Source: Torpedo marmorata
Lineage: Eukaryota
Length of the DNA stretch: 64,000 nucleotides
Direction: 5' to 3'
NCBI GenBank assembly: GCA_977017645.1
Contig: OZ360241.1
Span: 59,024,001 to 59,088,000, forward strand
The first letter of the stretch is position 1. The number at the start of each line of letters is the position of its first letter. Of the stretch, positions 22,794-47,418 are shown one piece after another. The position numbers were made by a program, and so were the translations under genes. The notes under the pieces are model-generated. The model saw nothing but the letters and a program-made list of their open reading frames with translations. It was not told the DNA's origin and searched no databases.

Positions 22794-22964
22794 GTAGAGG
22801 TGACATATCCTGATGGAAGTCCTGCAAATGGTATCACTGTGCGGATCAAAGCTGAGCTCACTCCGAAGGACAATGTCTACACAAGTGAGCTGGTGTCGGA
22901 GGACAGCAAGGTGGAGTTTGAAATTCCATCCATTCCCACTGCTGCCCAGTACGTCTGGCTAGAG
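22794..22964 (+). CDS. CPAMD8: CPAMD8 exon A9: [10 protein letters not shown]...AQYVWLE
   Basis: ttcag|GTA; GAG|gtgaga; 171 nt. Confidence 0.95.
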
Positions 22965-23133
22965 GTGAGAAGAGAGAGAGGCCTTGTGGTTTATAGACAG
23001 GAGAGAAGATTGAGAAATCGAATACACACATACACACACACACATATGTTCACGCACATGCATATTCATATTTCCTTGTGTTCTCATGCACGCATGTACA
23101 TACACAAATGTGTATACTTGTAAATAGGTGCAC

Positions 23134-23326
23134 AGTAAAATCTCTGTTATCCGGAATTCAAGCAACCGGCAACCTCAAGCAACCAGCAAAAAAAGTTCTG
23201 GAAAATAAATGGGTAAAAAATATGGAAGTTTAAATTGGCACGCCTCGCCATTAGTTCTCCATTCTCCAAAACTCGCTTATCCGGATCTACCAATCGCCGT
23301 GGGTGCCGGATACCAGGGGTTTTACT
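23134..23326. mobile_element. Tigger/pogo-like MITE (short form)
   Basis: cagtaaaatctctgttatccgg / ccggataccaggggttttact termini; family shared with 31144 and 60963. Confidence 0.75.
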
Positions 23327-23558
23327 ACCTAAACATACATGCTCGCACAAGCACATTGAAATTTGTGTGTAGACACGGACACGTTCATCATATCTATTGC
23401 CTCACACAGATTTGAGGCAATAGAGACATGAAAAGTAGGCAGCGATTGGAAATGTCTCTTGCCTTCTCTCATCCCTATCACCTGTTTTGTGGAAATAGCC
23501 TCTTAAGAGGTTATGAAGGGATCTTGGTATTAATAATGATATTCTTGCTCTATCTTAG

Positions 23559-23687
23559 ACTAAGGTGACAGCCATCAATGGGACTCCAGCTGGTGACCAG
23601 TATCTCCCGAGCTACCTGTCCATTAGCAGCTGGTATTCACCAAGCAAGTGCCACATTCAGCTGCAAGGTCCCGAGCGAGCGCTCCAG
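23559..23687 (+). CDS. CPAMD8: CPAMD8 exon A10: TKVTAING...SWYSPSKCHIQLQGPERALQ
   Basis: cttag|ACT; CAG|gtgaga; 129 nt. Confidence 0.94.
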
Positions 23688-25392
23688 GTGAGATATTGTG
23701 CCTGGCAGCATCTCGTCTTCCCTTTCTCACCGGCAGAGTCGAAGAACTTTACAGGGTATCTGGAATTTACAAACTGTCTCTTCAGCTAACGTCCAGCCAT
23801 GGATTAAAATTTGGAAACAACACACACATGGTTTTTATAATACTCAACCTACGAGGGATTTATCCATCCCATTGAATCTGTGCTGACTCTTTGAAGACTC
23901 TAAAGTCCCACTCCCTCGTTCTTTCCCCTTAGCCTGACAGCCTGCTTCCCTGTTAAGTATATTTCAACAATACATGGATATGAACGGTTTAGAAGCATAT
24001 AGGCCAAATGCAGGCAAGTGGGACTAGCTCTGATAGACAATGTGGTCAGCAAGGATGAGTTGGGCCGAAGGACCTGTTTCTGAGTTGTATAGCTCAGTGA
24101 TTATTCCTCTAAAATTCTTTTGGACGTCGCATTTGTGATAACCCTATGGATCTCTTATCAGATCACCCTGAATCTGTGTCCTCTCACCATCAACTTATTT
24201 CACTCTGGAAACAATTTCTCTATAATTACTCTGCCAAAACGTCTCATTACTTTTAACACCTTATTAAATCTTCTCTTTAAGCTCTCAGTTCTAAGGAAAA
24301 CAGCCCAAGCTTATCCGGTCTCTCCACATTAATTGAAGGCCCTCATCCCAGGGAACATTCAGATAAATCCCCTATGCATCCTCTCCAAGGTTTTGACATT
24401 AATCCCAAGGTGTGTTGCCAGAAATGAGCAAAATCCTTTGGTTGCAGCCAAACTAATGTTTATAGAGGATTATCATAACTTCCTTGCTGTAGTAGGTGCC
24501 TCCCGCAAGATATAGGGTCATGAAGATTTGCTTTTAATTAGCCTTCTCGACCTAAACTGCCAACTTCAAAGACTGGTAACAAAACCCCAACTCTCTCTAC
24601 TTCTGGCCCTGTTTTAAAATTGTATATTTAGTTTATGTTGTCTCTCATTCTTCCTACTAAAATATATCACTTCATGTTTCTAATTTAGTCTTCCATTTGC
24701 TGTCCATTCCTCGAGCTATTTACGTTTTCCTGAATTCTGTTACTTTTCTTGTCATCGTTTGTTTATTTCTGATATTTGGTTAATCTACAAGCTTTGAAGT
24801 GATGTCCACTATCCCAAGCCAGGCCACCAATGAATATTACTGGAGTGTCTCAAGAAAGGGTCCCAACCTGAAACGTTCACTGTCAATTTCTCGCCACGAA
24901 TGCTGCCTGACTCATTGAATTCCACCAGCTTCTCAATGAATTTTCCTGGACCCACTTTCCCTGATCCCACGACTCTACAGCCGAGCTGGATCCTCTCTCA
25001 GCTGATCACACATCTCTCCAGGTCACGGACCACGCAGATGTATTGTTTGTCTGAATGTGTGTTATGTCTGGTTGTATGTCTGCATGTTTTGCACCGAGGA
25101 CTGGAGAACGCTGTTTCGTCAAGTTGTACTTGTACAATCAGATGACAATAAACTTGACTTGACTTGAACCAGAACTTGAACAGAACTGGAGCTCGATGAG
25201 CTGAGGCCGATCGTGGCCTTTCCTGCTGCTCGACTAGCAAAGCCAGCCAAGACTAGGTCAAGACAAGACCTCGTCTTGACTCAGACAAGAAAAGCCAAGG
25301 CTGGTCGACTCTCACCATGCCTTGTGGCAGGAGTCATTGCCAGCCACAGCCCGCTGCATCTCACAAAGCTCTTTCATCTCTCAATGCTCCAG

Positions 25393-25582
25393 GTGGGTGA
25401 GGAGGCTTGGATTCCGGTGAAGTCCACCTGTCCCTGTGACTTTGCATTACACTTTGAGATAGCATCACGGGGCAACATCGTGAGGACAGGAGTGCAGTCG
25501 GCCAGCGTCACCCAGCAGCGCAGTAAGAGGGCCACCGTCACCTTCGATAAGAAGAGACAATTGTCACAGACCCTGCAGAACC
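25393..25582 (+). CDS. CPAMD8: CPAMD8 exon A11: [15 protein letters not shown]...QQRSKR...TLQN
   Basis: ccag|GTG; AACC|gtaagt; 190 nt. Confidence 0.93.
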
Positions 25583-25819
25583 GTAAGTCAAGGGGAGAGA
25601 CGGACTGAATGCAGGAGGAAGGGTCAGTTGGACGGAAGAAGTGATGGAAGGCTGGAGAGAGTGAGGGGAGGAGCAAGTGCCAGGCAGAGAGAGGGCTGAA
25701 TGGATGGGTGGAGAAAAGACCAGAGGGAGGGAGAGAGGATCAGGCAGAAAGAGGGTATGAGGGAGGATAAGTTGTTAAGATGAAGGGACATACACGGTAA
25801 ATAGTAGGGCACTGAGGAG

Positions 25820-27030
25820 TGCGGTAGAACAGAGGGATCGGGGAATACAGATAAATAATTCCCTGAAAGTGGCGTCACAGGTGGATAGGGTTGTAAAGAG
25901 AGCTTTTGGCATATTGGCCTTCATAAATCAAAGTATTGTACAGGAGTTGGGATGTTACGGTAAAGTTGTATAAGACATTGGTGAGGGCAAATTTGGAGTA
26001 TTGTGTGCAGTTTTGATCACCTAACTACAGGAAAGATCAATAAGATTGAAAGAGTGCTGAGAGGATTTACAAGGAAAAAAAGTAAAACACAAAAATCTGT
26101 AGACACCGTGGTTGAAGTGAAAACACAACGCTGGAGAAACTCAGCAGGTCAAACAGTGTCCTTTATACAGCAAAGGTAAAAATACATAACTGACGTTTCG
26201 GGCTTGAGCCCTTTATCAAGGTATGAAAAAATGCCGGCAGGCGTCTGAATATAAGAGTGGGGGGTGGGAGGGGAGGCGTGGTTGCAAAGGCAGGAGGTAA
26301 TAGGTGGAGAAAGGAGGGAGGGGACAGCAGCAAGCAAGGGGAGGAGGGATGGCTCTGTGAATAGAGAGGGAAGGGGGGAGGAGTGCTGAAAGGGGGAAGG
26401 GAAGAGGGGAGGGGGAAGGGGGGTGGGAGAGGAGAGAAGGTTAACAGAAACCTGAAAAGTCGATGTAGTTGGAGAGTGCCCAGACAGAAAATCAAGTGTT
26501 GTTCCTCCAATTTAGGGGTGGTCTTGGTGGGATAGTACATAAGGCCATGGACAGACATGTGTGTATGGGAGTGTGACACAGATGTTGCCAGGACTTCAAA
26601 AACTGAGTTACAGGGCAAGGTTAAACAGGTTAGGACTTTATTCCCTGGAGTGTAGAAGAATGAGGGGAGATTTGATAGAGGTATACAAAATTATGAGGGG
26701 TATAGATAGAGTGAATGGAAGTTGGCTTTTTCCACTGAGGGTAGGTGAGATACAAACCAGAGGACATAGGTTAAGGGTGAAAGGGGATAAGTTTAGGGGG
26801 AACATTAGGGGAACTTCTTCACACAGAGTTATGGGAGTGTGGAATGAGCTGCCAGCTGAAGTGGTTAATGTGGGCTCAATTTTCACATATAAGAAAAATT
26901 CAGACAGGATGGGAGGGGTATGGAGGGCTATGGACTGGATGCAGATCAGTGGAACTAGGCAGAATAATAGTTCGGCACAGACTAGAAGGGCCAAAGGGCC
27001 TGTTGTCTGTGCTGTAATGTTCTATGGATG
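25820..27030 (+). mobile_element. CR1 LINE 3' part split by a Penelope copy (about 26075-26580, minus strand)
   Basis: MLPGL..LSY..RL..LGLYSLE.RRMRGDLIEVYKI peptide; acaag|gatgttgcc rejoins across the insert. Confidence 0.88.
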
Positions 27031-27578
27031 CACGAGTTCCACTGATCCCCGATCCCCACTGAATAATGGGTCCGACCAAGCCCACATTTCAGCTGGGTAT
27101 GGGTCTCAGAATTGTAAAAGTCACAAGGTCCAATGGTTCCTCTAATCCAGGGAATGAGCACAGTCGTCAAGAATGACAATTCAGTTATTCAGGGAATACC
27201 ACAACATCAGAAAGAGATATTAAATTGAGCTGTAAAGGGAAAAAAGGTGTAGTGGTGAATGCGGGCTCAATTTTCACATTTAAGAAAAATTTGGACAGGT
27301 ACGTGGATGGGAGAGGTATGGAGGGCTATAGACTGGGTGCAGGTCAGTGAGACCAGGCAGAATAATTGTTTGGCACAGTAGAAGGGCCTGTTTTCTGTGC
27401 TGTAATGTTCTATGGTTCTAAGGGAATGGGCAGCCGGAGAGAGGGAAAGGAGGATCGGACAGAAGGAGGGAGGTTTGGACAGTGGGATGGTGAGAGGAAA
27501 GGTTAGATGGAGTGAGGTGACTGGTCGGAGGGAGAGAGAATCAGATGAACGGAGTTGAACCTCCTGCTTTCTTCTCAG

Positions 27579-27751
27579 AGCGATCCACGTCTCCAAGCAG
27601 TGAGGTTGGTGTGTGTACCACCTACTTGCAGTTCACGGTCACGCATGATATGAGCCCACTCAGCCGCTTGCTCCTGTACTACGTGCGAGAGAATGGTGAG
27701 GGCATCACCGACAGCATCCAAATTCCAGTTCAGCCATCCTATGAGAACAAG
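27579..27751 (+). CDS. CPAMD8: CPAMD8 exon A12: (Q)RSTSPSSEVGVC...YVRENGEGITDSIQ...YENK
   Basis: ttctcag|AG is the phase-1 compatible acceptor; AAG|gtgggt; 173 nt. Confidence 0.9.
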
Positions 27752-27874
27752 GTGGGTGAGCAACAACGTCAACCTGCATTTATTAAATCACCTGTAACAA
27801 TGTAAAAGATACCAAGGTACTTAACAGGGTTTTGCCAAATAAATTTTGACCCTGAGCTACACTTTAAGGCAGAG

Positions 27875-28400
27875 TGAAGTAAAACATGAAAGTCTGCAGA
27901 CACCGTGATTGAAGTAAAAAAACACAATGCTGGAGAAATTCAGCAGGTCAAACAGTGTACTTTATATAGCAAAGATAAAGATGCATAAGCAATGTTTCGG
28001 GCTTGAGCCCTTCATCAAGGTATGAGCAAAATGTAGGCAAGCGCCTGAATAAAATGGTGGAGGGGAGGGGCAGGGGGAGGAGCACAAGCTCATAGGCAGG
28101 AGGTAATAGGTGGATAAGGGAGGGAGGGCACAAGAGAAAACAGGGAGAGGGGGACGGCTCTGAATGGAGAGGGAACAGGGTGGAGAGCTGGAGGAAATGA
28201 GACAGAAGGATAGGGAAGAGAGGGAGAACGAGGAGTGGGCTAGCAGAAACCGGAGAAGTCGATGTTAATGCCATCCAGTTGGAGAGTGTGCAGTTGGAAT
28301 ATTAGGTGTTGCTCCTCCAATTTACGGGTGGCCTTGGTTTGGCAGTGCGTGAGGCCATGGACAGACATGTAGATGCAGGAGTGGGGCGCAGAATTGAAAT
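27875..28400 (-). mobile_element. Penelope-like 3' end/pLTR
   Basis: RKLEEQHLIF..LQLDGINIDF peptide and pLTR. Confidence 0.85.
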
Positions 28401-28836
28401 GGGCCAAGCAAAAGGGCCTATTTTGGAACTGAACAACACTGTGACCCAATGACTTAGTAGGGAAGTGGTTAAGCGAGGGTTTTAAAGAGGCAGCAAGACA
28501 CAGAGGAATAGGAGGGGAAGTTCCACAGTTTATGACCAATGCATATGAAGGTATGGCCACCATTAGAGATACGGTGATGTCCAGAATTGAGAGATCTTTG
28601 GGTTGTATAGTGGGGAGAGATTGGAAGGTGAGCAAAAGCCTTGGTGAGATTTGAAAACAAGGCTGAGAATTTTAAAGTTGGCTCAGTGCTAGCCCAGAAT
28701 CCTGCCAGGTAACCTGAACTGGATAAACCCTCCATTTGTTTTTGGGAGTGTGGTGAAGTTTGGAGAATGGGACTGGGGTGCAGGAAATGTGTTGGATTCA
28801 TGACTATTGTACATGTTCCTTTGGTTGAATGTCCAG

Positions 28837-28986
28837 GTTTCGATTTCACTCTCCTCCAATAAAACAATGCCTGGTGACCTCATCAGTGTAGCGGTGAAGG
28901 GCGAGGCACGATCGTGTGTTTGCGTGGCAACCGTGGATAAGAGTGTGTATCTGCTGAAACCTGGCTTCCAGCTCACAACTGACAAG
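28837..28986 (+). CDS. CPAMD8: CPAMD8 exon A13: VSISLSSNKTMPG...VDKSVYLLKPGFQLTTDK
   Basis: ccag|GTT; AAG|gtattc; 150 nt; VDKSVYLL motif. Confidence 0.95.
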
Positions 28987-29243
28987 GTATTCACGGCCGC
29001 CCTCTCTCCCTGACGAGGAAACCATGTCAGAATTCCTTCGGCTCTGTAAGGCTTAAATCAACCAACCACATCTATCAAACTTCATGTGTGAAACCTACTG
29101 TTGACCCCTCAGCCTTAACAGTCTTTCTTGGGGAGGGAGCTTTGGATTCCCACTCTCATCCAGGACAAAGCAGCCCACTTTACCAGCACCCATTCGCGAT
29201 CCAAAGCATTCATTTCCTCCATCATTAGATGTCTGTAGATGTT

Positions 29244-29490
29244 AAAAAAAAAAGGTAAAAGTAAAGGTTCCATTATTGTCACGTAATACTAGAATGTAAC
29301 GCACAAAATTCTTTGATATTTGTCTACCATAAGGCAGACAGAGAGTCGCTATTTTGTCCAGTGCCCCTCACAGAAACCTACAGCACCTGGTGTTCCTTGG
29401 CAGTCTCCCCTCCAAGTACTGACCAGTCCTGTGCCTGCTTAGCTTCCGAGATCAGACAATCCCAGTCGTATTCAGGCTGTTGGTGCTGTT
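29244..29490 (-). mobile_element. 5S rRNA-derived SINE (SINE3 type)
   Basis: Minus strand: tctgatctcggaagctaagcagg...ctggtcagtacttggaggggagactgcc..gaacaccaggtgctgtagg (5S head about 29375-29490) plus LINE-like tail gacaataa..(ccttta)n. Confidence 0.88.
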
Positions 29491-29890
29491 AATGTACCAT
29501 GTCTGCAAAATGCTCACCCGCGCTCCTCCAATGGCACTTTCCAAGCCTGCGATCTCTGTCACGAACAACAAAGGTGAATGGAAACCCTACTTCCTGCAGC
29601 ACACCCTCCCTGTGGGACAACTCCATGACGTGAATTACATCACCATTCCTTCAGTGTCACTGGGTCTAAACCTTGAAGTTTGCTGATCAGTTGTACTATG
29701 GGAATACCTTCACCATGATAATTGTAATAGTGCCCAGAGGTGCCTTTTCAAGGGTAGTTAGAAATGGGCAATAATTCTGAAAAATAGAATCGTATTTCCC
29801 CCCCGAACGGTCTGGTCCTCTTCATTTTCCCTACACCTCTGGCCACAGTTTCCCATCAGCTGACCTTTACCCTGTCCATTTCTTCTCTAG

Positions 29891-30049
29891 ATCTTTCAGG
29901 AATTGGCCGATTATGATGTTTCAGATGCTTTTGGAATTCCGAAGGAGGATGGTCACTTTTGGTGGCCAGGGCTGTCATCCCGAAGACGGAGATCATCCGT
30001 GTTCCCTTGGCACTGGGACATCACCAAGGATGCCCACTTCGCCTTCAGT
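29891..30049 (+). CDS. CPAMD8: CPAMD8 exon A14 with RRRR beta/alpha processing site
   Basis: tctag|ATC; AGT|gtaagc; 159 nt; RRRR at 29981-29992. Confidence 0.94.
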
Positions 30050-30415
30050 GTAAGCACCATCTCATGGCAACCTCCCTCATCTCAACTCACTCATGTCTGT
30101 TTTCAGCCTGCATTCTTCTCCCCATAAGACACAAGCTCTCACCTAGAACAAGGGTTCCCCAGACACTGACCTTTATTGGGTTGGGTCCCCCACATACTGA
30201 CTCTCACTGGGATAGGTATTTTGGGTACTGAATCTTACTGGGTAATGTTTCCACAGGCACCAGCTTGCATTGCAATATGGATTCCTCAGACACTGACTCA
30301 CTGGGGCACAGGTTCCATATATTCTTGACAACATTGCTTGAGGACGTTGGGTGCTATTCTGATCTTCTACCCAAGTCCGATTCATTAATCTGTGTCTGCT
30401 TCCATGATTACCTAG

Positions 30416-30558
30416 GAAACTGGCTTGGTGGTCATGACAGATGTGGTGAGTCTGAATCACAGACAGAATGGGGGGATGTATACTGATGAGGCTGTGCCTG
30501 GCTTCCAGCCCCATACAGGCACGCTGGTGGCAGCTCTGCAGCCAAGGATCAGCCCCAG
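30416..30558 (+). CDS. CPAMD8: CPAMD8 exon A15: ETGLVVMTD...QPRISP(R), bait-equivalent region
   Basis: cctag|GAA; CCAG|gtaaga; 143 nt. Confidence 0.93.
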
Positions 30559-31143
30559 GTAAGAAGAACTCTCTACATTTCACCCTTGGTGATTACTTGA
30601 ATGGATTAATCCTTCATTGCAAAACTATACCGTCTCCTGCTGTGCTGATGAGTTTGTCCAGCACCTCTTGGTGTAACTAACGTGTGGACTGAGTGGGACA
30701 GTGGTACTTCCAGGACATCTTTGGTTGCTGCCATTAACATAACGTATATGCTGGTGTATAAGGCGACTGGGTGTATAAGACGACCCCAGAATTTCCACCT
30801 AAAATGTAGGTTTAGAGCTATACTCGCTGTATAAGACTACCCCAGGTCTGGCACTTACCGCTGAGAACTTACTGCCCCAATAGTCCTATACCAACCATCT
30901 AACTGACCAGCACGCTACTAAGCAACACAGTCTTGGCTATTTAAAATGTAGCCAATTCATTTCAAGTAATGGCAAAATACTGTCAATTACTTACCATAAT
31001 ATGCATCAAACGTTCCCAGCTGGTGTAACGTAAACACTAGTGATATCCCTTAGGCGTCGGTTCTTTTACAGGAACAAACATGGTGTCGAGTATAATTTTG
31101 CCATTTACTTGAAATTGATTTACTGATTTACTTGTGTATAATA

Positions 31144-32294
31144 CAGTAAAATTCCCATTATCCAGCATTCAATCAACCGGAAACTCAAACAACCAGCCAA
31201 AAAAATCGAGGAAATAAATTAAAAAAAAAAGAATAAGTAAAGTTTTAAATAAAAGTTTAAAATTGTAAAAGTAAATGTTCTCCGAAGCAACACCCAACCC
31301 CATGGTGAAGATGGGAGCAAACATTCAGACAGTGGAGCGCCCCGGCCGTGCCTCACCCGCAGCAGCTGTTTGAATAAAGTTTCAATAAAGTTGTGTTTGA
31401 ATAAAATGGCGGCGCCCAAGATGATGAGCCGGCCAATGCCGCTCGCCGCTGGGGCGGCTCTCCAAAGTGTCTCCCTATCCCTGCCTAGTGAGAGTCTTTA
31501 TCTTTATTAGCATATTATTAAGTATATTAGTGAGGCTTTAACTGTAAACCTGGGGGAGGGGGGTTAATTTTGACAGCGGAACGGTTAGTGTAGCAGGTAG
31601 CGCAACGCTGTTACAGCACTCGCGAATGGGGTTCAAATTTAAAGGAAGGTGAGCCAATGCCTGACCGGGATACTGGCGTGGAGGTGAGTCGGGTTGCGCC
31701 GAGGGGCTGACCGGGACACTTGCGTGGAGGTGAGTCGGGCTGTCAGCACGGGGAAGGTGCACCGAGGGGCTGACCGGGACACTGGTGTGGAGGTGAGTCA
31801 AGTGGCGCCGAGGGTCTGACTAGGATGCAAGGATGAAGAACTGGCCGATACCGCTCGCCGCTGGAGTGACTTTCCCAAAGTGTCTCCCTATCCCTGCCGA
31901 GTAAGAGTCTATATCTTTATTAGTATTAAGTATGTTAGTAAGGCTTTAGCTGTAAGCTTGGGGGACGTAGGGTTAATTATAACGGCAGCATGGTTAGTGT
32001 AGCAGCTAGCGCATCGCTGTTACAACGCCAGCGACTGGGCTTCGAATTTAAATTTAAATTTTGTAAGTTATGGGAATTACCTGATTAAAGTGAACTTTAC
32101 ATAATTAAAGACTACAATACTGATTTTTTTTTCAAATTACTTTAAATTTTGCACTGTCATTTGTCGTTTAAACGGTGTATTCTTAATGCAGGTGTATTAG
32201 TTAGGCATTGTAACAGTGCGTCTCATTCAACCGTAAAATTTGCATTTCCAGCGTCCGCGATCCCCATAGGTGCCGGATAATGGGGATTTTACTG
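31144..32294. mobile_element. Tigger/pogo-like MITE (long form, internal duplication)
   Basis: TA|cagtaaaattcccattatcc ... ggataatggggattttactg|TA. Confidence 0.85.
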
Positions 32295-32549
32295 TATTAT
32301 ACTGTAATATATTAGAAATGTTGACAAAAAGTACACTGCAGGAATTTTCTTTAATTTATAAACTCAATCTTGCTTCACGAGACTCTCGGTAGGACTGCGT
32401 TCGGACTGTTTACACCAGTCTTTGGTCTTGTCTATTCTAGTTCATTTGATTACACCAAATGGCGACTGTTAGCTTCGTTTGCTGTGCTGTTATTTTAGGG
32501 TATGTTAGACAGGTTTATAATACATTTTATAATACAGGTTTATAATACA

Positions 32550-33520
32550 ACAAACACAGAATCCCCCTTGTCCTCACCTATCACCCCACCAGCCTCCGTA
32601 TCCAACACATTATCCTCCGGAATTTCCGGCACTTACAACAGGATCCCACAACCAGACACATCTTCCCCTCTCCTCCCCTCTCTGCCTTCCGTAGGGACCG
32701 TTCCCTCCGTGACTCCCTCGTGCACTCATCCCTCCCCACCAATCGCCACCCCTGGCACCTTCCCCTGTGGCCGCAGGAGGTGCCACACTTGCACCCACAC
32801 CTCCTCCCTCACCACGGTCCGGGGCCCCAAATAGGCCTTTCAAGTGAAGCAACACTTCACGTGTATCCGCAGGACTGATTTACTGCATCCGGTGCTCTCT
32901 TTGTGGCCTCCTCTACATCGGAGAGAATGGGCACAGATTGGGAGATTGCTTCGCTGAGCACCTTTTCTCCATCCACACCAGTGACAGAGACCTCCCAGTA
33001 GCCAACCATTTCAGTTCTGTGTCACACTTCCATACTCACAAGTCTGTCCGTGGCCTTATGTACTATCCCACCAAGACCACCCGCAAATTGGAGGAACAAC
33101 ACCTCATTTTCCGTCTGAGCACTCTCCAGCCGGATGGCATTAACATCGACTTTTACGGTTTCTGCTCACCTGCTCTCCTCTCCTCCCCACTTCCCTCCCC
33201 CTTCCCTTCCCCTTTCCAGTTCTCCTCCCTCCCTTCCCCCTCTATTCACCTAGCGATCCCTCCTCCCCTTGATCGCTGCTGTCCCCTCCCTCCCTTCTCC
33301 ACCTATCACCTCCTGCCTTTGCGACCACACGTCCCCCCCCTACTCTTGTTCGGACCCCTGCCGACATTTTTCCATACCTTGATGAAGGGCTCAAGCCTGA
33401 AACGTCGGTTATGTATTTCTACCTTTGCTACATAAAGGACACTGCTTGACCTGCTGAGTTTCTCCAGCATTTGCGTTTTTACTTCAACCACGGTGTCTGC
33501 AGATTTTCGCGTTTTACTTC
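32550..33520 (+). mobile_element. Penelope-like element: GIY-YIG endonuclease region plus pLTR
   Basis: LIYCIRCSLCGLLYIGE (GIY-YIG), FAEH, PVANHF, LEEQHLIFRL; flanked by tttataataca repeats. Confidence 0.92.
33373..33413 (+). ncRNA. Minimal type I hammerhead-like motif in Penelope pLTR (U3 variant)
   Basis: CATACC-TTGATGA-A-GGGC-TCAA-GCCT-GAA-ACGT-C/GGTTATG: helices I and II pair, helix III is palindromic ACGT; activity untested. Confidence 0.65.
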
Positions 33521-33779
33521 TTTATAATACATTTTTATTGTTTTAATATAACATTACTATTAATCCAGCTTCCCAAACGTGTTTTTGTTAAAAAATATTT
33601 AGTGGTAGGACCGTAGGAGTTATGTGAGTGTTTTATGCTGTTCTCCATTGCCATGGTGGGCACTCTAAACCACAGGATATTAAGGTTTGGATTTTATACT
33701 TGCCGTATAAGATGACCTCTGGTTTTGGGGTGACATTTTTAAGGTTCAAATTTCGTTTTATACGCCGACATATACGGTA

Positions 33780-34110
33780 AGTGACAGAGTGGTGCACCAA
33801 GTAGAACTACTCTCTCACAACGTCAGTGACTGAGCTTCAATTGTGACCTCTACTGCTATCTGTGTGGAGCTTGCGTGTTCTCCCTGTGATCATGTCGGGG
33901 ATGTCTTCTGAGTATTTCGCTTTTTCTCCCACATCTCAATGATGTATGGAATGGTAGGATAATTGGTCACTCTAACTCGCCTGACTGTAGGTGGGTGACA
34001 GAATTGATGGAAATGTGAAAGAATAATTTCCAGGGAAAATTAGTAAAGGAATGGGAATACTCTTTGAATTATCAGAGAATTGATGGGCTGAATGGTCTCT
34101 GACACAGTAT
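33780..34110 (+). mobile_element. Older, degenerate V-SINE
   Basis: ctgtgtggagcttgcgtgttctccctgtga V-domain. Confidence 0.65.
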
Positions 34111-34423
34111 GGAAATATCATATTATGAATATTTCATCTACCAGATTATCTTTCATCTCCACGGCTGATTCCAGTAACATTACAGGATCCAAGTGCGCAG
34201 AGGTGAGGATGTAGTCGATCAGCTCATCAAAAGATGGCACCTCTGGCAGTGACGCACTCCCTCAGTACTTCAATGGAGAGGCTGCCTGAGATTTTGTGCT
34301 CAACCTCCTGAACTTCAGCTATAGACCGCTGACTCTGAGGTCAGGAAGAACAATGTAGGAAAGTTCCATTAGGGAGCTGAGAGAGATTGTGATGGTCACA
34401 GTGAGGAAAGAGTATGTGGGATT

Positions 34424-34901
34424 GTACTGTGGAGAGCATTCTGACTGGTTGCATCACTGTCTGGTATTAGGTGCCACTGCACAGGACAGGAACAGGCTAC
34501 AGAGGGTTGTAAACTCGGCCAGCGCCATCATGAGCATTAGTCTTACCTCCATTAATGACATCTTTAAGAGCCAGTGTCTCAAGAAAGCAGCTTCTATCAT
34601 CAAGGACCCTCACCATCCAGGTCATGCCCTTTTCTCACTGCTACCATCTGGAAGGAGGTACAGGAGCCTGAAGACATACTCAACATTACAAAAACAGCTT
34701 CTTCCCCTCTGCCATCAGATTTCTGAATGGACACTACTTCACTTTTTCTCTTTTTTACACCACATTTATTTTTATTAAATCTTGTATTTATGGAATTGTA
34801 ATTTTATAGTAATTTTGCATCTTGTTCTGCACACAACACCGCTGCCGCAAAACAACAAATTTCATGACACGTGTTCATGACAATAAACCTGATTCTGATT
34901 C
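34424..34901 (+). mobile_element. Rex1/Babar LINE 3' end
   Basis: KKAASIIKDPHHPGHALFSLLPSGRRYRS; tail gacaataaacctgattctgatt. Confidence 0.85.
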
Positions 34902-34983
34902 CTAGGCGTGACTTGGAGGAACTCTGTCCTTCCATCGACGTTCTCCTCTCCTCTAACACATGACTGTTTTATTTTCTGCTCAG

Positions 34984-35046
34984 AGCTGAGAAGAGGAAAA
35001 GGACCTTTTTTCCAGAAACCTGGATCTGGCATTGTCTCAACGTCAG
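34984..35046 (+). CDS. CPAMD8: CPAMD8 exon A16: AEKRKRTFFPETWIWHCLNV(S)
   Basis: ctcag|A; TCAG|gtagaa; 63 nt; FPETW motif. Confidence 0.94.
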
Positions 35047-36204
35047 GTAGAAGTATTGAAAACGGGCTTTTTACAAAAGGGCAACAGTTGGGTTGGGATA
35101 GATGCCAATCTTATTCCAAGTGAAATTACCGAAGGCGGAAATAAAATTTCTGGCTCATGATAAGCTAAAGGTAGTTATCCAGTTTTTCCATGGTATATTG
35201 GAGGTTATTGTCAAGTGTTAGATGAATGTCAAGCTTAAAGATCCCCTCTCCAATGTTCCTTATGTCTATTGACTGGACTGAGCCAAATATGGGTATTAGG
35301 GATAGGGGTGGAGGGGGTTAGAAATTCTGTGTCACTCAATATCACAGATCAATTTATTCCTTATATTAGAACAAGTAGATGAGCAGGCAATATCGAGAGC
35401 TGTTCAGAGTGCAGCTTAACAGTGCGGAGGATGTTCTCATTGTGGCTGACAGTGCATGCAGCAAAACAAGCTGAAAGATATGGTGGAGCTCGTCTTCCAA
35501 AAATGATATAAATTGCTTCAAAGCCCTTAACACGTTGTCAGAATATCTCCCAATGCTTTACCATTGCTGCATTCCTCGCCTAAGTGCTCCCATGTGAGAA
35601 TTTAAAACATTACCAGCTTTCGAGCCAAAGGATGAAAGGAATTTTGAGTTTATTTACTTCCAAAGCTCCCAAACAGCGCAGAGCACAGCTTGTATCAGAA
35701 TGGAATGACATTTCAGCAGTGATGAATGAGGGGAGGGGAGGGGAGGATTGAAGGCAGTGATCTCAATGAGGAGCCGTCTCACACCTGTGCACCTTGACAA
35801 TCAGCACAGCAAAGCTTTAGTTTGATGTTCTCCTGAGTTACAACCAGTGAAAATAGTTTACACCGTTCAATACACAGGTCTTCCTGTTTAACACTGTTAA
35901 ATGCACAATGGCCTGGATAATGCACTGTTGAATGGATTTTCAATAGACAATCGACATTCCCACACTGACATGTCTGTCCATGGCCGCGTACTGCCAGGTT
36001 GAGGCCACCCTCAAATTGGAGGAACAGCACCTTGTATTCCATCTCGGCAGTCTCCAACCTGAAGGCATCAATTTTGATTTCTCCAATTTTCATTAACTCC
36101 CTCCCCTGGTCTTTTTCTTTCCCTACCCCTCTGTCTCCTTTCCTCCAGTTCCCCACCCCCTTTGCCTATTACACGACCCCAGCATCTGCAGATTTTCTTG
36201 TTCA

Positions 36205-36920
36205 ATAGACACAGCTCTCTATGCGACACTGTCCAATACACAGTTCCATATTTAACCCAGCATACAATATACACAGCTCCTTGTATTGCACACAATACAA
36301 TACACACAACTCCTAGTGTAATGCACCATCCAATACACATATCGGTAGTTCCCTCTATAACATATTGCTCAATGTACAACTCTGTACCATAACTATCCAA
36401 TACAGCTCCCCATGTAACACACTCTCCAATACACACCATTGCCTGTGTAACACATTATCCAATGTGCAAAGTATCTTGTATAATATATACAAATCACGAT
36501 GTAACACACCATCAAATACACACATCAGTCTGTAACTCGCTGTCAAAAGCACACCAATTCGCCCAGCTCCCTGCAGCAGCATGCCCAGTACATACAGGAC
36601 CGTATATAATGCACCAGCCAATTCACCCAGCCCCCTGTATACGGGTATACCCCGCTTTACGAAACTAGAGCGTTCCTATGAAACCTTTCGTAAGCCTAAA
36701 TGGCGTAAAGCGAAGACCCATTCACTACTATTGGAGGCTATTGTCGTAAAAGCAAAAACCCATTCAAATCCTTTCGTAAAAGCGAACACGGCTTTCTTCG
36801 TAAAAGCGAATTTTCGTAATTCGAGTATTTGTAAAGGGGGTATACCTGTACACCATCCAATGCACACAACTGCCTTTGTAGCACGTTATTCAATACCCAC
36901 AGCTCCTGCAGCATTGCACT
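36205..36920. repeat. Degenerate ~33-bp minisatellite (ccaatacacacagctccc.gtgtaacacaccat), interrupted by a MITE
   Basis: Recurring ccaataca/cagctc units. Confidence 0.65.
36642..36848. mobile_element. Tigger-like MITE
   Basis: TA|cgggtataccccgctttac ... gtaaagggggtatacctg|TA. Confidence 0.82.
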
Positions 36921-37103
36921 ATTAAACCGGTAAATATGAATTCCTGTGACAATCCCATAACAATGATCTGTCATTCAGTAAGAATGTTTATTGGGAATTG
37001 TCTGTCAGTGCTCCGTGATGGGATTGAGAGAGGGTGTGTCGATTCTGTTAGAGAATTCCTATCCAACCTATTTGCCGTCTAACTGTATGTCTCTTGCCAA
37101 CAG

Positions 37104-37335
37104 TGATTCCACAGGCGAGGCTCGATTGCACGTGGAGATTCCAGATTCCATCACCACGTGGGTCACCGAGGCAGTTAGCCTATCCCAGGAGAGTGGCCTT
37201 GGACTGGCACAACCCACCGAGCTCCGGACATTCAAACCCTTCTTCGTGGATTTCACCCTGCCCAGCTTTGTGATCCGTGGGGAGCAAACCAAGATCCCTC
37301 TCATGGTCCACAACTACCTCCTGGCCTGTGCTGAG
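37104..37335 (+). CDS. CPAMD8: CPAMD8 exon A17: DSTGEARLHVEIPDSITTW...NYLLACAE
   Basis: aacag|T; GAG|gtacgc; 232 nt; PDSITTW and FKPFFVDF motifs. Confidence 0.95.
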
Positions 37336-37572
37336 GTACGCGAGGAACTGTCGTATCAGGAGGGAGTGAGTGGGGAAGGTGGATGGAGAAGATGGGGGCT
37401 GGGCAGCCCATGGGTTGGGGTAATGCTACTGCACCTGTATAGCTGCGACACTGCCACCTATGCAGCCAGGTGGAAAATTGCCCAGGTATGTCCAGCAGAA
37501 CAAATACAGCCTGCTAATTCCTGCCCAACCCGCCTACACTCATGGAAGGTGTCCTTGACAATGCTACCAAGG

Positions 37573-37936
37573 CAGGGTCGGCGCCAAGGGGGGGTGAGGC
37601 ATTTGCTTGCATTGCCCCCCCAAGCGAGGTGCTGTGCCCCCCACCCCATACGCTCGCGGCCATCGCTCGCCGTCAGACCCGCCCCCGCCCATGTCACTAG
37701 CGTGCGTCAAGCGTCACTAGCGTCTAACTTGACGCACGCTAGTGACTCTCCACGCAATAAAAGCAGCGCTTTGGTCTGCTACGTCGGAGGAACGGAGGAC
37801 GTTAACATTCGTTCGTCAGGTAGATACCAGCACCCCCCCCCCCCAGCTGAGCGAGTTTACGAGTGTTGTACTGTTCCCCCCCACCCCCCGATTACTCTAA
37901 TGCCCCCCTCTAACACTCGTTCTGGTGCTGACCCTG
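37573..37936. mobile_element. hAT-type MITE
   Basis: TIR cagggtcggcgcca / tggtgctgaccctg; 8-bp TSD taccaagg / tatcaagg. Confidence 0.82.
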
Positions 37937-37980
37937 TATCAAGGACAAGGCACTCACTGACCAATAACCTGTTCAAGGAT

Positions 37981-38134
37981 AAAAACACAGAAACGCTGGA
38001 GGAACTCAGCAGGTCTCACCGCGTCGTTGATGTGATTGACTGCTGAGTTGACACTGCGAGACCAGCTGAGTTCCTCCAGCATTTCTGTGTTTTTACTACA
38101 ATCAAAGCGTCTGCAGACTTTCATCTTTCACTCC
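37981..38134. mobile_element. Mini fold-back Penelope pLTR insertion
   Basis: 14-bp TSD acctgttcaaggat at 37967-37980 and 38135-38148; 45-bp inverted arms. Confidence 0.82.
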
Positions 38135-38156
38135 ACCTGTTCAAGGATGCCCAGAG

Positions 38157-38493
38157 CAATGTTCCCTCTCATTTTTAGTAGTCAGTATGTGCAAAAATCT
38201 TATGTTGTGCAAATTTCTTTCCTGTGACAAAAGTATGTGCGCACTGAATGCTTGTGCAAATGTAAACTTGAAATTGTTTCAAGATAACTTTGGCACAGCC
38301 TATCTCTCATGGCTAATAAAACTGTATTGGCATGTTTTAATATAATACAAGTATGATTGCATTCTACGAAGTAATGTATTTAGTTAAGATTTTATTAAGT
38401 AACTAACCTTTTGTGCACATATTAATTTCCTTTGTGCGCTGGTTGCAAAACGTGTGTGTGCGCGCACACGCACACAGCTTAGAGGGCACAGTG
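38157..38493. mobile_element. hAT-type MITE
   Basis: caatgttccctct / agagggcacagtg termini; 8-bp TSD gcccagag / gcccagat. Confidence 0.8.
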
Positions 38494-38929
38494 GCCCAGA
38501 TGGGGTTTTGCTTGTGCCCCTTAGCTCCAGACCTCATTGCAGACATAGTGGAAAGAGCTGAATTCCAAAGATAAGAGTGACTGTCCTTGATACCGAGGCA
38601 GGATTTGACCTGATTGTGGCATCCAGGAACCCTTGTGAAACTCAAGCCATAGGCATCAAAGGGAAAACACTCCAGTGACTGGGGTCTCAGCTTGCTCAAA
38701 AGAACATGGATGTGGCTGTTGGAGGTCAATCATTCTGCCCCAGGACATTACTGCAGGAGTTCCTTTGCTAGGCTTAACCAACATTAATGACCTTCCTTTC
38801 ATCTTAAGTTCAGAAATGTGCACTGATGATTATTTCCATTGCAGTAATTCAGAGAATGAAGCAGTCTGTGCCTCCATACGTTGAGACCTATAAATCATTC
38901 AACACAAACTGATATGTGGAAAATAACAT

Positions 38930-39422
38930 TCATTTCAATTCCCTGTCCCATTCCCTTGCTGACATGTCTGTCCATGATCTCATGCACTGCCAGACTAAGA
39001 CCACCATAAATTGGAGGAACAACATCTTCTGTCTGGGCACCTTCCAACTGGATGGCATTAACATCAACTCCAGTTTCTGTTAAATCACCACCACCCCCAC
39101 CCCTTCTTCTTCCCCCTGTCGCCTTTCCTCCAGCTCTGTCTCTCTCGCTCTCTCCTCCCTTTTCCCTTGTCTCCTTTTACGGAGCCAAAATCTCCTTATC
39201 ATATCCAATTAACACCTTTTGTTGGTCTGGACCGCTCCCCCTGCCAGTCTTTATTCTGACGCCTTCCTGTCCTTTGCTTATTCCTTGAAGAAGGGCTCAG
39301 GCCCGAAACATCGGTAATATATCTTTACCTCCTATGGAGGCTGTGAGACCGGCTGAGTTCCTCCAGCATTTCTGTGTGTTTTTACTACAATCACAGTATC
39401 TTCAGACTTTCGTGTTTCACTT
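38930..39422 (+). mobile_element. Penelope-like 3' end/pLTR within decayed CR1
   Basis: ttggaggaacaacatct, gatggcattaacatc; pLTR with hammerhead-like motif about 39279-39317. Confidence 0.82.
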
Positions 39423-40336
39423 CAACAAGAGAGAGGCCATCAACTTAGCCATGCCATTCAATGACAGATCCAACACCACATCCACTGTCCAGAAAGAGAG
39501 GAGAGCTGGACGAGCTACAAAAATATTGTGGCTACTGAAGCAGTGTATCCTGCAGAGAGTGACTCATCGTTTAACACCCAAAGCCTCTCTACAAAGCACA
39601 AGTCAGGAGCGTGATGGAATACTCTCCGCATGGTTTGATTAGTGCAGCTCCAACTATACATCGAGGGAAAACAGCCCAATTGATTTGAAGTTCACCTGCT
39701 TTTCTAAATATTCATTCCCTCCAACGCCAGCATACTGTAGCCGCCGGGAGTACCAGCTACATAATATATCACAATTACTCACCTAGGCTACTCTGTCAAC
39801 ACCTAAATCTGTAACCTCCACCACCAAAAGGATCGGGGCATTAGGTTCATGGAAAGGCTCCCCTAAAGCTTCCTCCAAAACTCACATTGTGCTGACTTAT
39901 AAATATATTCCTTCATCACTGGCTTAGATCCTACGTTCCTCCTAAAAGTACTGCAGGTATACTTTCACTGCACTGCCTTCAGCAGTTGAAGGAGGCAGCT
40001 CACCACCACAGCGTTTTCTTTGGCCAATTAAAATTGGAAAATAAATGCTGCTTTTGCCCATATCTCACGAAGGAACAATAGTAACAGCAGGAACCTAGAA
40101 TAGGTGCTGGAATGTACCCACTCAACCTGCAATACTCTAGATGCCAGGAGCCTGGAATGCAAATAAAGCCTTGCTTCAGTTTCATAGAGCTCTAGTCAGA
40201 CTTCACTTGCAGCACTTCAGTTGCCACTTCCTCAGAGGCAATGCAATGTAGATTCTCCAGACTAATGCCGGACTTGAAGGTTTAACTGACAAGGATGACT
40301 GCGTAGATTTGGTTTGCATACCATTATTTTAAAAGA

Positions 40337-41253
40337 GTGATCAACATAGGTGCACCTCAAGGATGCGTGCTTAGCCCACCGCTCTATTCAGTCTACACCC
40401 ATGACTGTGTGGCTCGGCACAATTCAAATGCTATCTACAAATTTGCCAATGACACCACGGTCGTCGGCAGAATCACAGACGGCAATGAGGAAGCGTACAG
40501 GAGGGAGATAGATTTCTAGTTGAGTGGTGTCACAACAACAACCTTGCACTCAACGTTAGCAAAACCAAGGAGTTGATTGTGGACTTCAGGACGAAATTAG
40601 GAGAACATGAACCAGTCCTCATCAAAGGGTCAGCAGTGGAGAGAGTCAAGAACTTCAAATTTCTGGGTGCCAACATCTCTGAGGATCTGTCCTGGAGCCT
40701 CCATGTCGATGCAATCACGAAGAAGGCTCGCCAGCGGCTATACTTCGTGAAGAGTTTGAGGAGATTTGGCATGTCACCGAAGACTCTTGCACATTTCTAA
40801 AGGTGTACCGTGGAGAGCATTCTGTCTGGTTGCATCACTGTCTGGTATGGAGGTGCCAATGAACAGGACAGGAAAAACTCCAGAGAGATGTTAACATGGC
40901 CAGAGACATCACGGGCACCAGTCTTCACTCCATCGAGGACATCTACAAGAGGCGGTGTCTTAAGAAAGCAACCTCTATCCTCAAGGACCCCTACCACCCA
41001 GGCCACACCCTCTTTGCATTGCTAAGGTACAGGAGCCTAAAGATGAACACCCAGCGGCACAAGGACAGCTTCTTCCCCTCCGCTATCAGATTTCTGAATG
41101 GACAATGAGCCACAGACACTTCCTCACTTTATCCTATTTTCTTGCAATATTTATTTATTTTCAAAATGTGATTTGTAGCAATATTTGCACCGTAATGCTG
41201 CCGCAAAACAATGAATTTCGTGACATGTTCATGACAAGACATTCTGATTCTGA
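40337..41253 (+). mobile_element. Rex1/Babar LINE RT and 3' end
   Basis: GAPQGCVLSP.LYS.YT.DC, KFANDT (FADD), FKFLG, KARQRLYF; tail (ttctga)n. Confidence 0.92.
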
Positions 41254-41978
41254 TGTGAGAGTGATTAAGAGTGTTGAAGTTTATGGGGTAGACAGAGAGA
41301 AACTCTTCCCTCTGCTGGTGGTGTACAAAACCAGGTGGCTGAGTCCTAAAATTGGAGCCATACTATTCACACAATGATACAGTACAGAGAAAGGCCCTTT
41401 GGCCCAACATGTATATGCCACCCCATCATTGCCCCATCTACACTATTCACATTTATCAGCACTATGTTTTGGCAATTCATCGAGTTACTCCTTATATGTT
41501 GTGAAAATACCTGAAGGACATCTCCTCACAATAAAGGCAAAGGAACTGTCAAAAGCTGCCGAAAAGCACGCACATTGGGAGTGAATTTGAGTTTTCAAGG
41601 CAGACTTTGATGGATTTTTGAAATGAAAATGGAAAATGATGCAAATATTCAGCAGGTTAGACAGCAGCTGTGGAAATAAGCACAGAGTCAACTTTTCAGT
41701 CAAAAACCCTTCACCCCATTGTTTTGATGGTGTATTTGATGTAAAATGCAAACAGCAACCACTTTACAGCACCTGCAGTGTTTTGATTTTTTATTGATGA
41801 ATATTTGTTAGTTCAGGGTTTTGAGGGTGTGGGTCAAATTTGGATAAACCAGAGTGTGAAATTAAGTTCAAGATCCCCTTCTGTTGTGAGTGGAGATGAT
41901 ATTGAATTGAATGTCCCATGGATATTCGTGACTGCAGTTTGTGCACTATGCTGAGATCAGTCTCCTCACCTGTTCCAG

Positions 41979-42132
41979 GTTCATGTCAAAATTACAGTCC
42001 CGAAAGGAATCAAATTTATTGGACACCCAGGGAAGAGACACCTGACTCGCAAGATGTGCATCAACTCAGACGAAGCCAAACCCACTTCCATCGTCCTCTT
42101 GTTCAGTGAACTGGGCCCAGCGAACATCACAG
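41979..42132 (+). CDS. CPAMD8: CPAMD8 exon A18: VHVKITVPKGIKFIGHPGKRH...GPANIT
   Basis: ttccag|GTT; ACAG|gtaagg; 154 nt. Confidence 0.94.
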
Positions 42133-42260
42133 GTAAGGATTAATTCCAAACTCTCAGGTTTCAGTGGCGTTTCTAGCAAGCAGTGCTGAGCGTCCTGTTC
42201 CCGTGCTGTGTCTGCTGAGTGTCAGAATACATGGACAGCCCTGTTGCTTTATTTTCACAG

Positions 42261-42403
42261 CCAAAGGGTTTGCTTACAGCGGGAGCAGCTGCTGCCAGGG
42301 TGGGCTCCAGGCACTGAAGAATGGCAGGTACCTGGACGAAAGCTACCTGGACAGGAAGAACCCAGCTGGCATAGACTATGTGAAGAGACGTGTCCTGGTG
42401 GAG
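42261..42403 (+). CDS. CPAMD8: CPAMD8 exon A19: (A)KGFAYSGSSCC...GIDYVKRRVLVE
   Basis: tcacag|CC; GAG|gtgagg; 143 nt; preceded by a 128-nt intron. Confidence 0.94.
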
Positions 42404-42507
42404 GTGAGGGACTCTCTACGATGTTCAGGGGACTTAAACCGCATAAAGAAGTACAGTAGAAAAGCAAAATGCTAGACGGATGAATTCTGAAATAGAATCA
42501 GCAAAAA

Positions 42508-42763
42508 GGGCGGCATGGTTAGCGTAGCGGTTAGTTCAACGCTGTTATAGCGCCAGCGACCTGGGTTCGAATCCAGCGCTGTCTGTAAGGAGTTTGTACG
42601 TTCTCCCCGTGTCTGTGTGGGTTTCCTCCCGGTGCTCCGGTGTCCTCCCACCGTTCAAAAACATACCAGGGGTTGTAGGTCAATTGGGTGTAATTGGGCG
42701 GCACGGGCTCGTGGGCCAAATGGGCCTGTTACCGTGCTGTGTGTCTAAATTAAAAATTTAAAA
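42508..42763 (+). mobile_element. V-SINE (HE1-like), full length
   Basis: gggcggcatggttagcgtagcgg head, gggttcgaatcc B box, V-domain, tail. Confidence 0.9.
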
Positions 42764-43025
42764 TGCTCCGCAGGTCAGGCAGCATCGATGGAGAGAGAAC
42801 TGCAGCTAATATCTCAGGTCAATGATGTTTCATTCGTTTAGCAGACAGTGTACAAGTTGGTTGGTCACTTTGCAGAAGTTGAAGTTGTAAATAGAAATCC
42901 TGAGGTATTTGCATATGATGGGAAAGTGTCTGTAAAGTCAGCAGTAATGTGGAGGGGTAATTGCTACAGTGGACCTGTGCACTCATCATTCTTTTATCCT
43001 CTCTTTCTCCCTTGGTGTTCCACAG

Positions 43026-43077
43026 CCTGAAGGATTGCCCAGGGACTACACCTACAGCATCTTTTTCTGCCCCAATG
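43026..43077 (+). CDS. CPAMD8: CPAMD8 exon A20: PEGLPRDYTYSIFFCPN
   Basis: cacag|CCT; AATG|gtatgt; 52 nt. Confidence 0.93.

Positions 43078-47416: not shown

Positions 47417-47418
<2 letters not shown>

What the first reader, a model, noticed from the sequence alone, without database searches (positions are those of the whole stretch)
33373..33413. Penelope pLTRs seed CPAMD8 introns with minimal hammerhead motifs carrying a U3 core variant
Seen: CATACC|TTGATGA|A|GGGC TCAA GCC(C/T)|GAA|ACGT|C|GGTTATG. Helix I (CATACC with GGT-ATG, one bulge) and helix II (GGGC/GCCY) pair. Helix III is reduced to palindromic ACGT, and the predicted cut is after GUC (33406). The core reads UUGANGA rather than CUGANGA, with an extra A after A9, in the well-preserved copies. 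Sense copies: 33373, about 39279, about 60786. Antisense: about 6012, 26185, 27985, 49706, 60635. Known: PLEs encode minimal hammerheads that work as dimers (Cervera and de la Pena 2014). Inference: a family-fixed U3.G8 variant; three sense copies in one pre-mRNA could in principle dimerise in cis and cut introns.
Basis: partly seen in the sequence, partly recalled or inferred. Interest (0 to 1): 0.7.

Follow-up and report, generated by a model that had tools for sequence, protein, structure and literature searches.

The report
Wobble-core hammerhead in Penelope retrotransposon ends
These intron motifs are leftover ends of a very abundant Penelope-type jumping gene that carries a known kind of tiny hammerhead RNA motif with a mismatched core pair; it is likely a slow or idle ribozyme, the breakpoints of the largest subfamily show no pile-up at the predicted cut site, and the copies in this gene are likely harmless passengers.

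Summary
The motif and the seven other listed copies are real. They lie in pLTRs of a Neptune-like Penelope element (RT + GIY-YIG) inside CPAMD8 introns. U3 is lineage-fixed: 83,292 exact U3 copies versus 817 with C3, the level of other single changes (502, 1,001). An older sister subfamily has C3. Helix I covaries at two pairs, and the rest of the core is invariant across six U3 subfamilies. U3·G8 is not new: Cervera and De la Peña's Fig. S3 prints a UUGAAGA PLE motif, and the extra A and palindromic helix III are their consensus features. In the largest subfamily, 5' junctions are not enriched at the cut site (103 versus 71 control; about 79 after removing indels) but pile up at the motif's 5' edge (623), so copies likely came from uncut RNA. 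That subfamily (56,038) adds a second wobble. Cis-dimer cutting of CPAMD8 is unsupported: the three sense copies sit in different introns, one has lost the palindrome, one is predicted locked in a hairpin, and orientation is unbiased (14:15). Cleavage is untested. The scan reported this motif before in this genome.

The parts
33373..33413 (+). Minimal type I hammerhead motif, subfamily A1: helix I CATACC/GGTTATG with a bulge at 1.3, core UUGAUGA (U3·G8), extra A9a, helix II GGGC/GCCT, GAA, palindromic ACGT, predicted cut 33406/33407
32550..33520 (+). 5'-truncated Penelope-like element (broken linker + GIY-YIG remnant, then pLTR) holding the motif; 83% identical over 939 nt to a long natural copy (L051); flanked by TTTATAATACA at 32539-32549 and 33521-33531, a likely target-site duplication
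39279..39319 (+). Sense copy, subfamily B1, helix III palindrome broken (ACAT); intron 37380-41976
60786..60826 (+). Sense copy, subfamily A3 (U17); part of 60756-60895, predicted to form a ~140-bp hairpin with the inverted copy just upstream
60635..60675 (-). Antisense copy (within 60533-60705), inverted partner of the 60786 copy in the same intron
49707..49747 (-). Antisense copy, subfamily B2
27984..28024 (-). Antisense copy, subfamily A3, decayed (ACAT, G1.2 lost)
26185..26225 (-). Antisense copy, subfamily A1, U3-A8 core and G1.1 lost (likely decay)
6011..6051 (-). Antisense copy, subfamily B1, decayed helix III (ATAT)
1768..1808 (-). Further decayed antisense copy, 5'-truncated inside the core
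50157..50197 (-). Further decayed antisense copy beginning at the 5' strand of helix I
3855..63958 (+). CPAMD8 host gene, exons for about residues 86-1370 of a shark orthologue; the 33373 copy lies in the intron between exon hits ending 30586 and starting 34982

Best explanation
The motif is the minimal hammerhead of a Neptune-like Penelope element's pLTR, with U3·G8 fixed across the dominant subfamilies of this genome; it is likely a very slow, protein-dependent ribozyme whose fold is likely kept by selection in source elements, while new copies are likely reverse-transcribed from uncut RNA. Shown: identity of the element, fixation of U3, invariance of the other core nucleotides, helix I covariation, no cut-site junction peak in subfamily A2, and a junction peak at the motif's 5' edge. 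Inferred: the U·G wobble weakens the position 3-8 pair needed for the active fold; any cutting would need a second copy (ACGU/ACGU helix III) in a tandem element transcript and probably the element's own protein; cutting is dispensable for copying. The CPAMD8 copies are neutrally decaying insertions that likely do not cut the pre-mRNA.
For: U3 83,292 versus C3 817, U4C 502, G8A 1,001. In untargeted DNA, U3 in 55 of 55 in-register A/B copies (62 classified, 7 out of register dropped) and C3 in 4 of 4 C copies (7 classified). Among six U3 subfamily majorities, 0 of 10 core and 0 of 10 helix II/III positions vary, against 3 of 7 tolerant positions (7, loop II, 17) and 57 of 127 flank columns; Fisher p 3e-5. 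Two helix I pairs change on both sides (A-U/U-A, C-G/U-A; 11 of 44 distinct rows each). A 766-codon open RT + GIY-YIG frame has U3 motifs at both ends (L051). A2 junctions: 103 at the cut site, 71 at +4, 623 at -31; 0 of 120 untargeted copies start at the cut, 19 of 120 start at -36 to -29. In print: in a type III hammerhead all single changes in this motif gave low activity (PMC9901934, passages); the anole PLE hammerhead cuts only with its protein, is not needed for insertion in vitro, and leaves no RNA-seq ends at the cut (PMC11167929, passages).
Against: No cleavage assay or raw RNA reads; only assembled contigs were available. The conservation test is biased in its favour, since copies were found with a pattern covering A9 to G1.1, and the pLTR tail has invariant runs of 8-10 nt that are not part of the hammerhead. 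Covariation is imperfect: C·A at 2.6-1.7 in 6 of 6 B3 and 6 of 14 B1 copies, U·U at 2.5-1.6 in 12 of 22 B2; the number of pairs changed on both sides (3) does not beat shuffles (440 of 500 as high). The youngest subfamily adds U2.1·G1.1 and some mobilised templates add G10.1·U11.1, which fits loss of function as well. There is no positive control: no young C3 family was found in which a cut-site peak could be shown. Cut RNA could simply be destroyed and leave no junction.
Confidence: 0.55

Rival explanations
1. The motif is catalytically dead in the U3 lineage and is kept for another job: a transcription start or promoter signal, or a fold bound by the element's protein or marking where reverse transcription ends.
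For: Wobbles accumulate towards the youngest, largest subfamily (A2, 56,038 exact copies, nested in A1 with short branches). No cut-site peak and a strong peak at the motif's 5' edge. The monomer's predicted best fold pairs G5-G8 with 15.2-17 and hides the core. Naiad PLEs thrive without canonical hammerheads (PMC8557442, passages).
Against: The positions that vary are those a hammerhead tolerates (7, loop II, 17 as C or U only), and helix I was repaired by two-sided changes between U3 subfamilies, which a plain DNA promoter signal would not require.
Confidence: 0.3
2. The U3·G8 ribozyme is efficiently active in the ribonucleoprotein particle; cut RNA is withdrawn from the template pool, so cutting limits or times transposition and leaves no junction scar.
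For: Core invariance; protein-assisted cutting in the anole element; natural U3 cores exist (PMC4209133 Fig. S3; a saltern variant cited in PMC7151607).
Against: The element reached at least 83,292 copies; mutational data point to low activity for an unpaired or wobbled position 3; extra wobbles spread in the youngest subfamily.
Confidence: 0.1
3. One reading: sense copies in CPAMD8 pre-mRNA pair in cis through helix III and cut the introns.
For: Three sense copies exist; 33373 and 60786 both keep ACGU. Conserved intronic hammerheads are known in amniotes (PMC6155905, passages), though those are full type I motifs.
Against: Different introns, 5.9-27.4 kb apart; helix III duplex -1.7 or +0.9 kcal/mol; predicted probability of helix I 0.01 for 33373 in its flanks and 0.0 for 60786, which pairs with its inverted neighbour at -233 kcal/mol; 14 sense versus 15 antisense pLTR pieces across the gene, 7 versus 9 spanning core to cut; copies show CpG-type decay.
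Confidence: 0.03

Closest known systems
Minimal type I hammerheads (min-HHR) in pLTRs of metazoan Penelope-like elements (Cervera and De la Peña 2014, PMC4209133; first 2 of 4 parts of the text and first 2 of 3 parts of the supplement read)
   Same: pLTR location, same strand as the ORF, extra nucleotide between 9 and 10.1, G10.1-C11.1, GAAA-CG-U-H with palindromic 15.2-16.2, mostly single truncated copies. Fig. S3 prints a PLE-linked UUGAAGA (U3·G8) row for Saccoglossus kowalevskii, and U3-A8 rows for Schistosoma.
   Different: Here U3·G8 is the state of all dominant subfamilies (28 of 29 complete motifs in untargeted DNA, none C3); helix I has a conserved bulge; the youngest subfamily adds U2.1·G1.1; U3 may have come from a one-U insertion.
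Anolis Poseidon element PAc hammerhead (PMC11167929, passages)
   Same: PLE hammerhead; uncut RNA is the main template in vitro; no RNA ends at the cut site.
   Different: PAc has C3-G8 and overlaps its start codon; it is Penelope/Poseidon clade, while this element has the CX2-5CxxC linker of Neptune/Nematis.
Neptune/Nematis clades of endonuclease-positive PLEs (PMC8557442, passages)
   Same: RT with DKG and YIDD, CX4CxxC linker, C-terminal GIY-YIG, inverted 5'-truncated copy next to the element.
   Different: Clade not placed by a tree here; Neptune versus Nematis not separated.
Non-LTR retrozymes (bioRxiv 10.64898/2026.07.22.740005, first 2 of 5 parts)
   Same: Type I hammerheads related to PLE pLTRs.
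   Different: Retrozymes are non-coding tandem arrays; the window's copies are dispersed ends of a coding element.

Membership tests
Endonuclease-positive Penelope-like element | Single ORF with RT and C-terminal GIY-YIG | tested here: met
   L051 766-codon open frame: RVT_1 E 1.8e-6, GIY-YIG E 5.5e-4, both just under Pfam cut-offs; window 32547-33480 is 83% identical to its 3' part
Endonuclease-positive Penelope-like element | pLTR with tandem or inverted arrangement | tested here: met
   L051 has an inverted 5' copy and a 3' pLTR; window pair 60533-60705 / 60756-60895
Neptune clade | CX2-5CxxC linker between RT and endonuclease | tested here: met
   CARRRCNTC; feature shared with Nematis
Neptune clade | RT phylogeny groups with Neptune references | not tested
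   No named reference proteins were returned
PLE minimal hammerhead | Core U4 G5 A6 N7 G8 A9, G12 A13 A14, A15.1-U16.1, H17 | tested here: met
   Invariant across six subfamily majorities
PLE minimal hammerhead | Watson-Crick pair at 3-8 (C3-G8 or U3-A8) | tested here: not met
   U3·G8 in 43 of 44 distinct rows; a printed PLE example shares this
PLE minimal hammerhead | Helix I of at least 2-5 bp with covariation | tested here: met
   6 bp with one bulge, two pairs changed on both sides, with mismatch intermediates
PLE minimal hammerhead | Helix II with G10.1-C11.1 and an extra nucleotide after A9 | tested here: met
   93% of cells paired; no two-sided change; G·U in 12 of 44 rows including the 33373 copy
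PLE minimal hammerhead | Palindromic helix III allowing dimers | tested here: met
   ACGU in all subfamily majorities except the 4-copy D class; lost in 39279
Self-cleaving ribozyme | Site-specific self-cleavage after H17 | not testable with these tools
   Only contigs available; the indirect junction test was negative for subfamily A2
Domesticated intronic hammerhead (RECK type) | Full type I fold active as a monomer and conserved at an orthologous intron | tested here: not met
   Helix III is minimal, copies carry decay changes and no strand bias; orthologous introns of other species were not examined

The most novel reading that the evidence does not exclude
A one-U insertion shifted the register of the catalytic core (old C3 became the closing base of helix I, the new U became position 3), trading catalysis for a stronger helix I. 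The lineage then kept eroding the ribozyme while expanding to more than 100,000 copies made from uncut RNA, and holds the hammerhead fold as a non-cutting signal at the 5' edge of the template. This would be a natural experiment showing that Penelope elements keep the hammerhead shape, not its cleavage.
Probability: 0.25. Interest if true: 0.6.

Novelty: new member of a known kind. Interest (0 to 1): 0.35.

Why it matters
What PLE hammerheads do is unresolved (PMC8557442 calls their function unclear). This genome holds a graded natural series in one lineage: C3, one-U C3 with a poor helix I, U3, U3 plus U2.1, and U3 plus U2.1 plus U11.1, with copy success rising as pairing weakens. That makes 'do these elements need to cut their RNA?' directly testable with a handful of 41-nt RNAs. 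It does not point to a new way of regulating CPAMD8.

Tried and rejected
Rfam scan: no hammerhead family matched. RNA evidence: no RNA holder listed, only contigs of three coded organisms; contigs cannot show ends. They hold the motif in hundreds to tens of thousands of contigs and 33379 T>C was not among the 40 rows shown (70 rows hidden), so sharing of U3 with relatives is a hint only. U3-A8 subfamily: rejected, G8A (1,001) is at background. C3 as the family consensus: rejected. Fossil cut marks: not found in A2; other subfamilies had only the 120-copy sample. Alternative register keeping C3 with a looped-out U: not excluded for A1, A3 and B, but impossible for A2, where that C has become U. 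Alternative hairpin between 2.1-A6 and loop II (CCUGA/UCAGG, CUUGA/UCAGG, CUUGA/UCAAG across C, B, A): -3.0 against -7.7 kcal/mol for the hammerhead monomer, single events only, not pursued. A tree on the endonuclease region did not resolve the order of C, one-U D and two-U D copies (one row each for D), so the insertion origin of U3 rests on length agreement with the C family. AUG inside the core opens only a 17-codon frame in the 33373 copy (read), so coding constraint was rejected. Papers not held and not seen: Lünse et al. 2017, Przybilski and Hammann 2007, Martick and Scott 2006, Scott et al. 2013, one recalled PubMed id. Lünse et al. may report U3 variants and their rates. Searches for U3·G8 wording found nothing relevant, nor for PLE hammerheads in sharks. 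Supplements of the bioRxiv preprint were not seen.

Full report
Observation. The 41-nt motif at 33373-33413 is as described, with U3 at 33379 and the predicted cut at 33406/33407. The seven other listed copies are present, plus two more decayed ones at 1768 and 50157. Exon hits for MG4, A2M, Methyltransf_FA and TED domains lie on the + strand, the best named homologues are shark CPAMD8 proteins at 85-90%, and tblastn gives the exon map. Rfam has no matching hammerhead model at E<=1.

The element. The 33373 copy ends a 5'-truncated insertion of about 970 bp flanked by an 11-bp direct repeat. It is 83% identical over 939 nt to L051, a natural copy with a 766-codon open frame bearing RT and GIY-YIG hits just under Pfam's cut-offs, a CX4CxxC linker, an inverted 5' copy and U3 motifs at both ends. 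By the features given in PMC8557442 (passages) this is a Neptune- or Nematis-type PLE; no clade tree was made.

U3 is fixed. Exact counts in the 6.2-Gb genome: U3 83,292; the same pattern with C3 817, with U4C 502, with G8A 1,001; reversed controls 0. So C3 is at the level of ordinary decay, and part of it belongs to an older subfamily C, in which 90 of the 100 listed hits (242 in all) have C3. In 1,064,000 untargeted bases (the window, 200 kb beside it, and 80 spaced 10-kb stretches), copies classed by downstream sequence alone have U3 in 55 of 55 in-register A and B copies (62 classified, 7 dropped as out of register), C3 in 4 of 4 C copies (7 classified), and U in 9 of 12 unclassified ones. 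A descriptor open at positions 3 and 8 found 29 complete motifs there: 28 U3·G8, 1 U3-A8, 0 C3; three shuffles gave 1 hit.

Is the fold still selected? Among majorities of six U3 subfamilies, 0 of 10 core and 0 of 10 helix II/III positions vary, against 3 of 7 tolerant positions and 57 of 127 flank columns (Fisher p 3e-5; core alone 0.005). The copies were found with a pattern over A9-G1.1, which favours this result, and the tail has other invariant runs of 8-10 nt. On 56 natural copies (10 per subfamily, 6 for B3; 44 distinct), 89.9% of cells pair, 23 cells change on both sides (0 of 500 shuffles as high), chiefly A-U/U-A at 2.3-1.4 and C-G/U-A at 2.6-1.7; but only 3 pairs are involved (440 of 500 shuffles as high), helix II has no two-sided change, and related rows inflate the counts. 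Mismatch intermediates exist in B1, B2 and B3. The youngest subfamily A2 (56,038 exact copies; nested in A1 with short branches) closes helix I with U2.1·G1.1. In L051 both ends also carry G10.1·U11.1, which suggests that a template with three wobbles was mobilised.

Origin of U3. A small old subfamily has the D-type tail and one U fewer (ATAC-CTGA; 107 exact hits, of which about 17 of 30 viewed are D-type and the rest look like single deletions in A and B copies). It has C3, the same length as family C, and a poor helix I. Both one-U and two-U forms occur among untargeted D copies. This suggests that U3 arose by a one-U insertion that moved the old C3 into helix I. The direction is inferred from length agreement with C; the tree did not resolve it.

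Does cutting leave marks? I had listed this test in my notes before earlier scan notes reported such scars in other genomes. Of 120 untargeted copies, 0 begin at the cut site (one at +1, one at -2) and 19 begin at -36 to -29, the 5' strand of helix I (BLAST ends are imprecise). Genome-wide in A2, junction patterns gave 103 at the cut, 71 at +4 and 623 at -31. Of 30 cut-site loci viewed, 7 were small indels in intact copies, against 0 of 15 controls; corrected estimates are 228 versus 225 (p 1.0; raw p 0.08). The -31 count is inflated by duplicates (11 of 20 loci viewed are one duplicated insertion) but remains several-fold higher. Copies that start there contain the whole core and cut site, so they came from uncut RNA. 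Whether -31 is the transcript start or an RT stop is not known. No young C3 family was available as a positive control.

The CPAMD8 idea. The sense copies lie in introns 30586-34982, 37380-41976 and 60408-63872. The dimer-forming helix is 4 bp: -1.7 kcal/mol for ACGU/ACGU, +0.9 with the 39279 copy. In its own flanks the 33373 helix I has predicted probability 0.01, and 60786 is fully paired with its inverted neighbour in the same intron. The 33373 element could also pair with antisense copies at 26 and 28 kb (-617 and -477 kcal/mol), though these too are in other introns. Across the gene there are 14 sense and 15 antisense pLTR pieces, 7 and 9 spanning core to cut; the sample is small. Nothing here supports intron cutting.

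Known work. PMC4209133 (parts 1-2 of 4, supplement parts 1-2 of 3) defines the min-HHR, lists the extra nucleotide and the palindrome as consensus, reports low activity even as dimers, and prints a UUGAAGA PLE row for Saccoglossus. PMC7151607 (passages) cites a natural U3..G8 saltern variant; PMC3088659 (passages and section 8) covers U3-A8. PMC9901934 (passages) found low activity for all single changes in this part of a type III hammerhead; I saw no number for C3U itself. PMC11167929 (passages) shows protein-assisted, dispensable cutting. Searches for explicit U3·G8 wording found nothing; Lünse et al. 2017 was not available. The scan has reported this same motif at least six times in this genome.

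Verdict. A real, known kind of motif with a rare but printed core state. The useful additions are the negative cut-site test, the 5'-edge peak, the graded erosion, and the possible insertion origin of U3. Interest 0.35.

Noticed in passing
window 29375-29493 (-): 5S rRNA match (42.6 bits, above Rfam's 38) inside a CPAMD8 intron; likely a 5S pseudogene or the head of a 5S-derived SINE.
   Followed up: no
window 33378-33382 with 33391-33395; subfamilies C, B, A: N2.1-A6 is complementary to loop II plus G11.4, going C-G (C), U·G (B), U-A (A) at position 3; could be an alternative fold or a quasi-palindrome repaired by template switching.
   Followed up: partly
L227-L256; G000 107 hits: Old D-type subfamily with one U fewer (C3, often C7 and U17) and a poor helix I; possible intermediate in the origin of U3.
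   Followed up: partly
L307-L317 (G000:C1:57.77-58.06 Mb): Eleven near-identical copies of one A2 stub with the same short-repeat flank, a segmental or array duplication.
   Followed up: no
L257, L260-L263, L273, L277, L279; L011, L061: Many inversion junctions join the motif to its own reverse complement within or next to the hammerhead, making short palindromic pLTR doublets.
   Followed up: partly
window 37980-38131, 46873-47036, 60533-60895: Inverted pLTR-tail pairs that would form long hairpins in CPAMD8 pre-mRNA, candidate A-to-I editing substrates.
   Followed up: no
runs X1 and X2 laid on window 33340-33480: Depth-weighted G>A at 33408 (G1.2) in about 40-55% without a matching C>T at 33377, hinting at an uncompensated helix I change in a relative; contig depths are unreliable for this.
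   Followed up: no
window 24855-24874 (+): Heavily decayed hammerhead-like end of another PLE family with a different helix II.
   Followed up: no
window 11056-11198: Run of 143 N inside a CT-rich tandem repeat.
   Followed up: no
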